From the NCBI RefSeq assembly GCF_055900595.2, contig NZ_CM148325.1: DNA of 64,000 nt, one strand, 5' to 3'. This document shows positions 48,301 to 51,300 of this stretch, in pieces. The position numbers are program-made. The first letter of the stretch is position 1, and the number at the start of each line of letters is the position of its first letter.

Positions 48301-51300
48301 TTTACAAATCTTCTTTGAATTAAATATATATCGTCCTGACTAAACAGAACTATAACGGAATGAATTATTTAATCATATTACTAAATTTCATTTTGTTTAG
48401 CCTCTGTTGAGATCCCTTGTTTTAAATTTCATTTAGATAAAATTCTTAATTAAATCCTTGGGAGTCAATTATGTCTATGCAAAGTCAAGGAATGAACTTT
48501 GAAATGAACCTATACGCATATTTGAATAAATATGATAGTCGGCTTTCAGAAGAAAAACTTGCAATTGATAAGGCAGTTAGAGATTTATATCTTTACAACG
48601 AACACGTGGATAACAAGAGCATTATACTGAAATTGCTTTCATTTTTATCATCTGCTGATGACATTGTTGAAAAAGATATTATCAGGAATGCTTTGGAAGT
48701 GGTGCTTATTTTTACATTAGACGATATTTAAGTCATCTCAGGAGTTTTAATACACGAAGAGTGCCCGGATACTAGCGATTATATTCATATTTAATTATTA
48801 GTGCGGGGAAAGAGATTATGCATTGGCATATTTCTCTAACGTCCGTGATAGAAAAAAACTTTAAATATAAATAAAGAACAAACCACCTTTGCATTCAACC
48901 TCATCTGAGCTGAATATATTGATATTCTTTATCAACATCATTGGAACAGAAGAATAAGGCGAAGAAATGAAGTGTATAGTAATTGATACTGTAATACAAC
49001 CTTCGTGTGGTATATATTTTTCAGTCATATGGAGCGATATGAAAATGATCATTTGGTATCGTTCAAATATATTTATCCCACCTGGCAGCATATTTACAGT
49101 TATTAAGTCAGGTATTATACTCGAGGATAAAGAATATCCGATCAGTATTTTTAACGTGGCGCTATTCAACAAAAACTTATGGAATTTAATCAAAAATAGT
49201 CAAGAGTGTCCTACAGAATCAAACAAAATTACGAATAAATGCCTGCATAAGAATTGCATTATGCAAATATGTCCACATGGTCTCAAGTAATGGGGGTTAT
49301 TTAACCTTCCCTATATGCTATAGATAAATCTACCAAAAACTGCCCCTTCGTAGAGGGGCGCTATGATTTTGTTTTATTTGAAGGCATGGTACTGAATGTA
49401 TTCGTTGAATCCAGATTCAACACCTGAAGCTGCACTAAACCCATAATACTTGTTTCTGGTTCCTCTACCGAGTGGTCAAACAATGATATGTATGTGACGT
49501 CAGAGTTTATATTTTTAGTGTTTAATGCTATTAATTTAACGTAGTTACCTATCTTTTTTCTACCTTCTGAACTAACCTTAGGTTTCAACGTAACCGGCAG
49601 GAGGGGCTATCCCCAATCTTAAATTTTGCTGCCCGATTTGCTCAAGCCAAAGTTTTAATTTTACAACCTATAAACCTGAGTTAAATCAACCTCATGGTGC
49701 TGTCTTTTCCCGCTGTGGAACAAGACTCACTGCAACATCTTGCATTCCTAAACTTCGCAGAAGGCGATGGGCAAAAACTGTACTGTAATGTTATTTCGAT
49801 GTCTCTTATGGTAAATAGGAGGCGTCGAGGCTAAGTGAGTAGCCTGCTTGCTTCTCAAGCCTGGATACTATCAGCATTCACGTCAGATGAAATGATGATA
49901 TTTCGCGTAAGAAAGAGGCATTTTTTTATCAACTTCACATCGGAGATGGTAATAATCCTATGGGTCCAGTCCATATGAGGGGGTCAACATACTATAAAAT
50001 TCACAATCATAAATTAACTATATATCAAGAACGCCAAAAAAATCCTGAAAATAGTATAATAACAGGGTAAATTTCAAGTCGACCAAGAATCATAGCAATA
50101 CACATGAGATATTTTGCAATATCATTAAGAACACCGAATGAGGATGCGGTAGCCCCAAAACCCAGCCCCATATTATTAATGCATGCAGCGACTGTCGCAA
50201 ATGATGTAAGGAAATCATATCCCATACCGTTTAGCACCAGTATAAAAAACACTGTAAAGAAAGTATAAAGAAAAAAGAAACTCCATACAGACCTCATTAC
50301 GCGGTCTGTAACAATCTTCCCTCCTACATTTACACTAAGCAATGCTCTGGGATGAGAAAGCTGATTTATTTCGTGTTTACTTTGTTTAAAAAGTATAAGA
50401 AATCTAAGTGATTTAATTCCGCCGCACGTTGAGCCTATACATCCCCCAAAAAAACTTGACAGCAGCAAAAAAACTATCGTATGTGTGGGCCAGTTTGAAT
50501 AATCCTGCGTAGCTAAACCATTATCAGTGAGCATGGAGCTAGCAAGAAAAAACGAATGAACAACACTTCCAGTTAAGTCATACATACCTATATGCCAGAC
50601 CTGGAAAGAGGTAACAATGATAACACCTGAAGCTATTAACAAAAAGAAACGAAGTTCAACATCTCTGAGTAAGGGTTTTATTGTTTTCCTGCTTATAACA
50701 ACATACCAAAGAGTGAAGTTGAAAGCCGATAACAGAGAAAAAGAGCCCGCCACCAGTTCAATCAAATAATTATTGAAATAACCGATACTCTCACTATGAG
50801 TTGAAAAACCGCCAAGAGAAACTGTAGAAAGTCCATGACAAATAGCATCAAACAACGGCATTCCTGCAAGTCGATAACAAACAATACAGGCAATGCCTAA
50901 TAAAGAATAAGTTATCCAAAGTGTCCGCGACGTATCAGCCAAGCGTGGAGTCAGTTTGTCATCCTTAAATGGTCCTGGCATTTCTGACTGATAAAGTTTT
51001 GCACCACCAATACCCAATAATGGCAACACAGCAACTGCCAGAACAATAACCCCTAAACCGCCTATAAAATTTAATTGTGACCGGTAGAACAAATATGCCC
51101 GAGATAATGAACTGACATCATCAATTACTGTTGCTCCTGTTGTTGTTATTCCGGAAACCCCTTCAAACAGCGCGTCAGCAAACGTTAAATTAAGCTCTGA
51201 ATCAATCCATAATGGAAATGCGCTAATAATAGAAAATAAAATCCAAAACATTACAATTATAATAAACCCATCACGGGTGCGTAATTGAATGCCAGATTTT

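What the first reader, a model, noticed from the sequence alone, without database searches (positions are those of the whole stretch)
48394..49290. AriR-family paralog upstream of iraM with a PhoP-box-like repeat
An 86-aa protein aligning with AriR over its C-terminal half lies directly upstream of iraM, preceded by TGTTTA-N5-TGTTGA. iraM is PhoP-activated in K-12, so the two small connector-type proteins may be co-regulated here. I do not recall this paralog in K-12.
Basis: partly seen in the sequence, partly recalled or inferred. Interest (0 to 1): 0.35.

Follow-up and report, generated by a model that had tools for sequence, protein, structure and literature searches.

The report
AriR-like gene ahead of iraM
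A rare E. coli variant still carries an intact AriR-like small regulator gene between a PhoP-type promoter and the stress gene iraM, which suggests that the well-studied K-12 iraM upstream region is what remains after that gene was deleted.

Summary
Window 48471-48731 encodes an 86-aa YmgB/AriR-family protein. It scores above the Pfam cut-off, is 40% identical to AriR and has dN/dS of about 0.15. It lies 235 nt upstream of a divergent iraM allele (48967-49290, 72% identical to K-12 IraM). TGTTTA-N5-TGTTGA sits at 48394-48410, 11-12 nt upstream of a -10-like hexamer. That is the same layout as the phoP promoter box at 62806-62822 in this window.

K-12 lacks the gene but keeps the orthologous promoter, the box (TGTTTA-N5-CATTGA) and about 15 codons of the paralog. 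A deletion of about 425 bp then runs to about 25 nt before iraM. That junction is in 3884 of 5426 complete E. coli genomes. The intact pair is in 29.

The whole iraM module is an insertion flanked by 70-bp direct repeats at the icd terminator.

Co-regulation by PhoP is well supported by architecture and orthology, but co-transcription and PhoP binding are inferred, not shown. NCBI's automatic annotation already names the gene as a family member, and no functional study of it was found.

Verdict: a real, ordinary-sized finding. It is a new member of known kinds with a useful evolutionary explanation. Interest is moderate.

The parts
48394..48410 (+). PhoP-box-like direct repeat TGTTTA-gcctc-TGTTGA
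   Evidence: It is one of two exact KGTTKA-N5-KGTTKA matches in the window (0.07 expected); the other is the phoP promoter box. Half-site 1 is invariant in 8 alleles. Half-site 2 is TGTTGA in intact alleles and TATTGA or CATTGA in deletion alleles.
48422..48428 (+). -10-like hexamer (TTAAAT / TAAATT) 11-12 nt downstream of the box
   Evidence: Read. TTTAAATTT is invariant in all 8 alleles. The spacing matches the phoP promoter in this window, where the box ends at 62822 and CATAAT starts at 62835. The box-to-(-10) segment is the best conserved non-coding piece between allele classes, at 86.5%.
48264..48393 (+). Conserved upstream regulatory block, including a reverse-oriented TGTTTA half-site (TAAACA, 48341-48346)
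   Evidence: It is 79.5% identical between the two intact allele classes, against 62.5% for the spacer and 48% for the 5' UTR. A reverse box-like sequence is also present in K-12.
48460..48464 (+). Shine-Dalgarno GGGAG, 6 nt before the ATG at 48471
   Evidence: Read.
48471..48731 (+). ariR-like paralog, 86 aa (YmgB/AriR family). A second in-frame ATG at 48477 corresponds to the start used in the other allele class.
   Evidence: PF10798 at 51.6 bits. 40% identical to AriR. PDB 2OXL at E 1.5e-10. dN/dS 0.15 with dS 0.8-0.9 against the LHM10-1 allele. Annotated as WP_050486594.1.
48732..48966 (+). 235-nt spacer between the paralog and iraM. No terminator-like or promoter-like hit on the + strand; poorly conserved.
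   Evidence: fold z = -1.1; 62.5% identity. Almost all of it is missing in K-12.
48967..49290 (+). Divergent iraM allele, 107 aa
   Evidence: NF007393 at 142.7 bits against 121. 72% identical to K-12 IraM. PDB 8TWD at E 5.6e-36.
49341..49370 (+). Intrinsic-terminator-like hairpin plus T-run downstream of iraM
47830..47898 (+). Left direct repeat bounding the iraM module (a copy of the icd terminator and the last icd codons)
   Evidence: 81% identity over 70 nt to 54135-54204. The empty site holds one copy.
54135..54204 (+). Right direct repeat (the genuine icd terminator and icd 3' end)
62806..62822 (+). PhoP box of the phoP promoter (GGTTTAtttaaTGTTTA), used as an internal positive control

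Best explanation
The segment is a small stress-regulatory module made of one PhoP-type promoter followed by two small regulator genes. The promoter has a PhoP box over the -35 position and a -10-like hexamer 11-12 nt downstream. The genes are an AriR/YmgB-family paralog and the RssB anti-adaptor iraM, and a terminator follows iraM.

The most likely mechanism has four steps:
1. Low Mg2+, or another PhoQ signal, produces PhoP-P.
2. PhoP-P binds 48394-48410 and starts a transcript near 48434.
3. That transcript encodes the AriR-like protein and reads through the 235-nt spacer into iraM.
4. An AriR-type connector is therefore made together with IraM, which stabilises RpoS. The connector may act on SpoT or Rcs, because the SpoT-contact arginine is conserved.

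The common K-12 arrangement derives from this one. A single old deletion of about 425 bp removed paralog codons from about 16 onward and nearly all of the spacer. This brought the same promoter to about 160 nt from iraM.

The whole module is an insertion at the icd terminator, flanked by 70-bp direct repeats. It exists in at least three deeply diverged versions.

**Shown here:** gene identities, purifying selection, promoter orthology, the deletion, and the insertion and empty-site polymorphism.

**Inferred:** PhoP binding, the transcription start, read-through into iraM, and the function of the paralog.
For: **Gene identities:**

**Real coding gene:** dN/dS is 0.15 at dS of about 0.8, similar to iraM at 0.17-0.21.

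**Box statistics and internal control:**

**Promoter conservation:** the promoter core is the best conserved non-coding segment between allele classes. Half-site 1 and the -10 are invariant in 8 alleles.

**K-12 comparison:** K-12 keeps the box, the -10, the ribosome-binding region and the first ~15 codons, then jumps to ~25 nt before the iraM ATG. Five divergent alleles share the same junction, so this was one event.

**Frequencies:** the deletion junction is in 3884 of 5426 genomes. The intact pair is in 29. Eleven of those 29 genomes carry the LHM10-1/UTME-7/GF4-3-type alleles; their paralogs are about 74% identical to the window's. The iraM checked among them (LHM10-1) is 95% identical to K-12 IraM.

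**Operon layout:** there is no + strand terminator or promoter hit in the spacer in either allele class, and a terminator follows iraM.

**Literature:** K-12 iraM is induced about 20-fold in a PhoQ-dependent way (PMC5740661) and is described as PhoP/PhoQ-controlled (PMC10948607). The PhoP box consensus is given in PMC8355897. YmgB R74 is needed for SpoT binding (PMC10704370) and is conserved as R72.
Against: - The spacer is 235 nt, which is long for co-transcribed genes, and it is AT-rich. A weak internal promoter cannot be excluded. The ~60 nt before iraM show faint similarity to the region upstream of an IraL-type gene.
- One mismatch to the strict PhoP consensus is not significant alone.
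- The K-12 ortholog of the box has three mismatches. I could not read the paper that mapped the K-12 iraM promoter, so I have not verified that the mapped PhoP site is this box.
- The paralog has been lost from more than 99% of strains, so it is dispensable.
- No other genus shows a directly adjacent AriR-like/iraM pair.
Confidence: 0.6

Rival explanations
1. Promoter capture. In strains with the intact pair, the PhoP-type promoter drives only the AriR-like gene, and iraM is transcribed from its own weak promoter in the spacer. On this reading, PhoP control of iraM in K-12 and most E. coli was created by the ~425-bp deletion, which fused iraM to the paralog's promoter.
For: - The spacer is long (235 nt), AT-rich and poorly conserved.
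- The deletion removes the spacer almost exactly.
- IraL-type genes have a promoter immediately upstream (PMC4045071), and that region is weakly similar to the last ~60 nt of the spacer.
Against: - No promoter-like or terminator-like hit was found on the + strand of the spacer in either allele class.
- The spacer has no significant structure.
- Both genes are on the same strand with a single terminator after iraM.
Confidence: 0.25
2. The repeat is not a working PhoP site. On this reading the promoter responds to something else (for example RpoS, EvgA/YdeO, or relief of H-NS silencing), and the resemblance to a PhoP box is incidental in AT-rich DNA.
For: - One-mismatch matches to the strict consensus occur at near-chance frequency.
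- The K-ortholog's second half-site is degenerate (CATTGA in K-12).
- The Leclercia iraM homologue has no such box.
Against: - Position and spacing match the phoP promoter in the same window.
- The box-to-(-10) segment is the most conserved non-coding stretch across alleles with dS of about 0.8.
- K-12 iraM, which sits behind the orthologous sequence, is PhoQ/PhoP-dependent (PMC5740661).
Confidence: 0.12
3. The 86-aa ORF is a decaying or non-functional relic that is simply on its way to being lost, as has happened in K-12.
For: It is absent from more than 99% of complete genomes.
Against: - dN/dS is 0.15 across very divergent alleles.
- The ORF is annotated as a normal coding gene, with no pseudogene flag, in the four records whose annotation was read; a YmgB/AriR family protein is annotated under the match in all 29 genomes.
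- It has a good Shine-Dalgarno sequence.
- The family motif, including R72, is conserved.
Confidence: 0.03

Closest known systems
AriR (YmgB) of the ycgZ-ymgA-ariR-ymgC operon, E. coli K-12 (PDB 2OXL)
   Same: - Same Pfam family (PF10798) and similar size.
- 40% identity over 73 residues, with helix 3 and Arg74 (here R72) conserved.
- Predicted to be all-helical, and the best structural match is 2OXL.
   Different: - It sits about 4.5 kb away from that operon, in a separate insertion module.
- It lies behind a PhoP-type promoter, whereas the ycgZ operon is described as BluR-repressed (from my own knowledge).
- Its N-terminal ~13 residues are unrelated to AriR.
- The sub-family is confined to rare E. 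coli strains, and its next relatives are at most 43% identical.
K-12 iraM and its PhoQ/PhoP-dependent upstream region
   Same: - Orthologous locus between ycgX and icd.
- Orthologous promoter block, box half-site 1, -10 and the first ~15 codons after the ribosome-binding region.
- IraM is 72% identical.
   Different: - K-12 has lost ~425 bp (the paralog body and the spacer). It retains a 22-codon remnant reading frame whose stop overlaps the iraM ATG.
- Half-site 2 is CATTGA in K-12 and TGTTGA here.
- The window module also carries trkG, an IS remnant and an orphan gene.
IraL of uropathogenic E. coli CFT073 (PMC4045071)
   Same: An IraM-family RssB anti-adaptor carried on horizontally acquired DNA. 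An IraL-type gene (L006) is 63% identical to the window's IraM.
   Different: IraL-type genes lie in a prophage or island elsewhere in the chromosome. They have their own proximal promoter active in log phase, and no AriR-like gene lies upstream.
phoP P1 promoter (autoregulated PhoP box)
   Same: A direct repeat of (T/G)GTTTA-type hexamers 5 nt apart, ending 11-12 nt upstream of the -10 hexamer.
   Different: The phoP box matches the consensus perfectly. The box here has one mismatch (TGTTGA), and binding has not been tested.
PmrD, the PhoP-activated connector
   Same: A small PhoP-induced protein that protects a response-regulator receiver domain. IraM has a PmrD-like fold (bioRxiv 10.1101/2023.01.07.523045).
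   Different: It has a different target (PmrA rather than RssB). There is no detectable sequence-level family relationship, and this was not tested here.

Membership tests
YmgB/AriR family (PF10798) | Match to the family profile above the curated cut-off | tested here: met
   51.6 bits against 22.3, E 8.5e-14, residues 28-85 against profile positions 2-59 of 59.
YmgB/AriR family (PF10798) | Sequence relationship to the solved YmgB structure, and a helical fold | tested here: inconclusive
   phmmer to 2OXL gives E 1.5e-10 over 62 residues. The AlphaFold model reaches only pLDDT 70.5 and has four helices. The Foldseek top hit is 2OXL with probability 1.0 and TM 0.65, but rmsd is 6.8 A and E is 0.013.
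YmgB/AriR family (PF10798) | Conserved helix-3 arginine (YmgB R74), required for SpoT interaction | tested here: met
   R72 is invariant in the alignment with AriR. The role of R74 is taken from PMC10704370.
AriR orthologue (ycgZ-ymgA-ariR-ymgC operon member) | Position in the ycgZ-ymgA-ariR operon next to bluF/bluR | tested here: not met
   The true ariR is at 43708-43974 on the minus strand. The paralog lies in a separate module beyond ycgX.
AriR function (biofilm repression, acid resistance, Rcs or SpoT connector) | Phenotype, or a binding partner | not testable with these tools
   None.
IraM family (NF007393) | Match above the curated cut-off, and relationship to the solved IraM | tested here: met
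   142.7 bits against 121. PDB 8TWD at E 5.6e-36. 72% identical to K-12 IraM.
IraM family (NF007393) | Binding to RssB and stabilisation of RpoS | not testable with these tools
   None.
PhoP-activated promoter | Direct repeat (T/G)GTTTA-N5-(T/G)GTTTA | tested here: met
   TGTTTA-N5-TGTTGA has one mismatch. It is one of two relaxed-pattern matches in the 64 kb, the other being the phoP promoter. The consensus is taken from PMC8355897.
PhoP-activated promoter | Box overlaps the -35 position, about 12 nt upstream of a -10 hexamer | tested here: met
   11-12 nt to TTAAAT/TAAATT. The phoP promoter in the window has 12 nt.
PhoP-activated promoter | Conservation in orthologous promoters | tested here: met
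   Half-site 1 and the -10 are invariant in 8 alleles. Half-site 2 varies between TGTTGA, TATTGA and CATTGA.
PhoP-activated promoter | PhoP-P binding and phoP-dependent transcription | not testable with these tools
   The only support is indirect. K-12 iraM, downstream of the orthologous sequence, is PhoQ/PhoP-dependent (PMC5740661, PMC10948607).
Bicistronic operon | Same strand, no intervening terminator, terminator after the last gene | tested here: met
Bicistronic operon | Short intergenic distance, or a demonstrated joint transcript | tested here: not met
   The spacer is 235 nt. A joint transcript cannot be tested here.
Site-specifically inserted module at icd | Direct repeats at both ends, and an empty site with one copy in other strains | tested here: met
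   Repeats at 47830-47898 and 54135-54204. The empty site is found in at least 72 genomes.
Site-specifically inserted module at icd | A recombinase or integrase inside the module | tested here: not met
   Only trkG, a transposase remnant and a 457-aa orphan without family matches lie between iraM and icd.

The most novel reading that the evidence does not exclude
The PhoP -> IraM -> RpoS connection studied in K-12 is a secondary product of gene loss. Originally, PhoP induced an AriR-like connector, which may act on SpoT/ppGpp or on Rcs. On this reading iraM was transcribed either together with the paralog or separately from it. One ~425-bp deletion, now present in about 72% of complete E. coli genomes, then fused the promoter to iraM. 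It left a 22-codon remnant reading frame that is translationally coupled to iraM. Rare strains with the intact pair would therefore respond to low Mg2+ through two connectors at once, or through a different one.
Probability: 0.3. Interest if true: 0.55.

Novelty: new member of a known kind. Interest (0 to 1): 0.35.

Why it matters
iraM is a standard example of a connector that links PhoQ/PhoP to RpoS stability. If its K-12 promoter and leader are the remnant of an AriR-like gene, three things follow.

- It explains the long leader and the weak second half-site of the box in K-12.
- It provides natural strains in which a second small regulator is probably induced by the same signal.
- It shows how a single deletion can tighten or create a regulatory link.

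The work also places iraM, the paralog and trkG on a small insertion module at the icd terminator. This fits the horizontally acquired location of IraL.

The paralog itself is uncharacterised. It keeps the residue that AriR needs to bind SpoT, so it may link PhoP to ppGpp.

Tried and rejected
- **Papers not held.** Bougdour et al. 2008 (PubMed 18383615) and Eguchi et al. 2011 (PMC3067605) are not in the library. The mapped K-12 iraM start site and PhoP site could therefore not be checked.
- **Text search.** Searching for the K-12 box sequence found nothing. Searches for iraM with PhoP box, ChIP-exo, ariR or ycgW gave no paper describing the paralog.
- **Mobile-element copies.** tblastn of the paralog against phage and plasmid collections found no match.
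- **Other genera.** The scan of species-representative genomes returned only AriR orthologues from other genera, and none was directly next to an iraM homologue. It returned no Escherichia locus at all, so it says nothing about other Escherichia species.
- **Distant family members.** Context look-ups for three of them showed ycgZ-type operons or a prophage gene, and no iraM.
- **RNA families.** Rfam found nothing in 47000-50100.
- **Spacer structure.** The spacer fold is not significant.
- **237-bp extra segment.** The segment 47872-48108 is single-copy and specific to this allele class, so it is not a repeat element.
- **IraL upstream region.** Its similarity to the spacer is too weak to call.
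- **Position weight matrix.** I did not build a matrix from known PhoP sites. I relied on the consensus pattern, shuffles and the phoP promoter in the window as a control.

Full report
**What is there.** The window is E. coli chromosome. Around the finding the gene order is:
- ymgC-ariR-ymgA-ycgZ (minus strand), then bluF, bluR and ycgX (47236-47640);
- the 86-aa ORF (48471-48731);
- an iraM-family ORF (48967-49290);
- trkG (50025-51500, minus strand), an IS remnant and a 457-aa orphan;
- icd (54190-55440, minus strand), and further on phoP (62883-63554).

The 86-aa protein hits Pfam YmgB/AriR well above the cut-off. It is 40% identical to the window's own AriR over residues 14-86 and matches the YmgB crystal structure sequence at E 1.5e-10. 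A shallow-alignment AlphaFold model is only moderately confident (pLDDT 70.5). It is all-helical, and 2OXL is its best structural match. The downstream ORF passes the IraM model cut-off. It is 72% identical to K-12 IraM and matches the solved IraM at E 5.6e-36.

**The motif.** TGTTTAgcctcTGTTGA lies at 48394-48410. With both hexamers allowed to be KGTTKA, the 64-kb window has two matches on both strands, against 0.07 expected. The second match is the perfect box GGTTTAtttaaTGTTTA, 60 nt upstream of phoP, which serves as an internal positive control. A one-mismatch match to the strict consensus is not unusual by itself: 4 were found against 1.47 expected. The case therefore rests on position and conservation. 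The box ends 11-12 nt before a -10-like TTAAAT/TAAATT, and the phoP promoter has 12 nt. A GGGAG Shine-Dalgarno sequence lies 6 nt before the ATG at 48471.

**Comparison with K-12.** The ycgX-iraM interval of MG1655 is homologous throughout at about 74-80% identity, apart from two gaps.
- The first gap is a 237-bp segment (47872-48108) specific to this allele class. It is single-copy and found in 16 genomes.
- The second gap matters more. K-12 has the same upstream block, the box as TGTTTAacatcCATTGA, the invariant TTTAAATTT, a ribosome-binding region and ATGCAAAATCAAG..., which are the first ~15 codons of the paralog. It then jumps to about 25 nt before the iraM ATG.

A truncated 5' piece of a gene that belongs to an established family cannot be the ancestor of the full gene. 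K-12 is therefore the deletion derivative. Five K-12-type alleles that differ by up to 13% share exactly the same junction, so the deletion happened once, long ago. What remains in K-12 is a 22-codon frame (MQNQEINILMNHIKYRGIRHNK) whose TGA overlaps the iraM ATG, and it stays in frame in all five alleles.

**Distribution among 5426 complete E. coli genomes.**

| Locus state | Genomes |
|---|---|
| K-12-type deletion junction | 3884 |
| Intact paralog + iraM, window type | 18 |
| Intact paralog + iraM, LHM10-1/UTME-7/GF4-3 types | 11 |
| Empty site (ycgX, one terminator copy, icd) | at least 72 |

In the LHM10-1/UTME-7/GF4-3 group the paralog is about 74% identical to the window's. The iraM checked (LHM10-1) is 95% identical to K-12 IraM. 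NCBI's pipeline annotates the ORF as 'biofilm development regulator YmgB/AriR family protein'. In the 15-billion-protein collection the sub-family is seen only in E. coli. The next relatives are ordinary AriR-family proteins at 43% identity or less. No copy was found in the phage or plasmid collections.

**It is a real gene.** Between the two intact allele classes dS is about 0.8-0.9 and dN/dS is 0.15. iraM gives 0.17-0.21.

**Conservation of non-coding parts.** Between the same two allele classes:

| Segment | Identity |
|---|---|
| Box-to-(-10) | 86.5% |
| Upstream block | 79.5% |
| Paralog and iraM ORFs | about 81% |
| Spacer | 62.5% |
| 5' UTR | 48% |

The promoter core is thus the most constrained non-coding segment, and the spacer carries no strongly constrained element. 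Simple scans find no promoter-like or terminator-like site on the + strand of the spacer in either allele class. A terminator follows iraM at 49341-49360, and the spacer fold is unremarkable.

**Mechanism.** K-12 iraM is PhoQ/PhoP-induced according to the literature (PMC5740661, PMC10948607). It lies behind the orthologue of this promoter with nothing else between. I therefore think the window's module is most likely a PhoP-activated two-gene unit. The AriR-like protein would be made first and iraM by read-through. I put this at about 0.6.

The main rival, at about 0.25, is that iraM has its own weak promoter in the spacer and that PhoP control of iraM arose only through the deletion.

The paralog's function is inferred from family membership only. 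The helix-3 region, including the arginine that YmgB needs to bind SpoT (R74; PMC10704370), is conserved (R72). A SpoT- or Rcs-directed connector role is therefore plausible but untested.

**Wider context.** The block 47899-54134 is bounded by ~70-bp direct repeats (47830-47898 and 54135-54204). Each repeat consists of the icd terminator plus the last icd codons. K-12 and LHM10-1 have the same repeats around their shorter modules, and empty-site strains have one copy. iraM and its companion gene are thus cargo of an insertion at the icd terminator, and no recombinase is left in it. This fits three other observations:
- the deep divergence between module versions;
- IraL-type genes sitting in prophages or islands (PMC4045071);
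- a YmgB-family gene found as a stand-alone gene in a prophage.

In Leclercia an IraM-family gene lies 2 kb downstream of ycgZ-ymgA-ariR, but it has no PhoP-box-like sequence.

**Verdict.** The gene is a new, automatically annotated but unstudied member of a known family, placed behind a known type of promoter. The useful new point is that the K-12 iraM upstream region appears to be what a deletion of this gene left behind.

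Noticed in passing
window 47830-47898 and 54135-54204: About 70-bp direct repeats (the icd terminator plus the last icd codons) bound a 6.3-kb block that holds the PhoP-box promoter, the paralog, iraM, trkG, an IS remnant and an orphan gene. At least 72 complete E. coli genomes have the empty site with one copy. The iraM module is therefore an insertion at the icd terminator, with no recombinase left in it.
   Followed up: yes
L002 18069-18001, minus strand (NC_000913.3 1,212,068-1,212,000): K-12 keeps an unannotated 22-codon remnant of the paralog (MQNQEINILMNHIKYRGIRHNK) whose TGA overlaps the iraM ATG (ATGA). The frame is intact in five divergent deletion-type alleles. This may give translational coupling to iraM, which has a weak Shine-Dalgarno sequence.
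   Followed up: partly
window 50025-51500 (minus strand): A TrkH-family gene annotated as trkG lies next to iraM inside the inserted block. From my own knowledge, trkG in K-12 lies in the Rac prophage, so it looks like mobile cargo here too.
   Followed up: no
window 52436-53812 (minus strand): A 457-aa ORF between trkG and icd has no Pfam or NCBIfam family match. It is annotated as a hypothetical protein in related strains.
   Followed up: partly
window 48248-48265 (minus strand) and 48270-48330: A minus-strand terminator-like hairpin followed by a T-run is conserved in the LHM10-1 allele (L003 4741-4723) but degenerate in K-12. Next to it is a very well conserved block that overlaps the K-12 small-protein gene ymgK, although the ymgK reading frame itself is not conserved in the window. 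It may be a divergent small transcript or an extended regulatory region.
   Followed up: partly
window 48341-48346: A reverse-oriented perfect TGTTTA half-site (TAAACA) about 50 nt upstream of the direct box is conserved in all alleles. In K-12 it forms a two-mismatch reverse box. It may be a second PhoP site.
   Followed up: partly
window 62806-62822: A perfect PhoP box (GGTTTAtttaaTGTTTA) lies 12 nt upstream of CATAAT and 60 nt upstream of phoP. I used it as an internal control.
   Followed up: yes
L019 5076-5450 (Leclercia adecarboxylata); also L015 and L018: An IraM-family gene (124 aa, NF007393 at 105.7 bits) lies about 2 kb downstream of ycgZ-ymgA-ariR, separated from it by a U32-peptidase-like gene. 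This is a looser AriR-IraM neighbourhood in another genus, and no PhoP-box-like sequence lies upstream.
   Followed up: partly
L026 3001-3252 and L006 4003-4338: A YmgB-family gene sits as a stand-alone gene between lysis and terminase genes of a prophage. An IraL-type IraM homologue sits in a lambdoid prophage next to a SASA-family esterase gene. Both small-regulator families travel on phages.
   Followed up: no
window 47236-49327 compared with K-12: The flanks of the locus are about 93-95% identical to K-12, but the module itself is only 74-80% identical, with dS of about 0.8. This points to replacement by a distant module version rather than divergence in place.
   Followed up: partly
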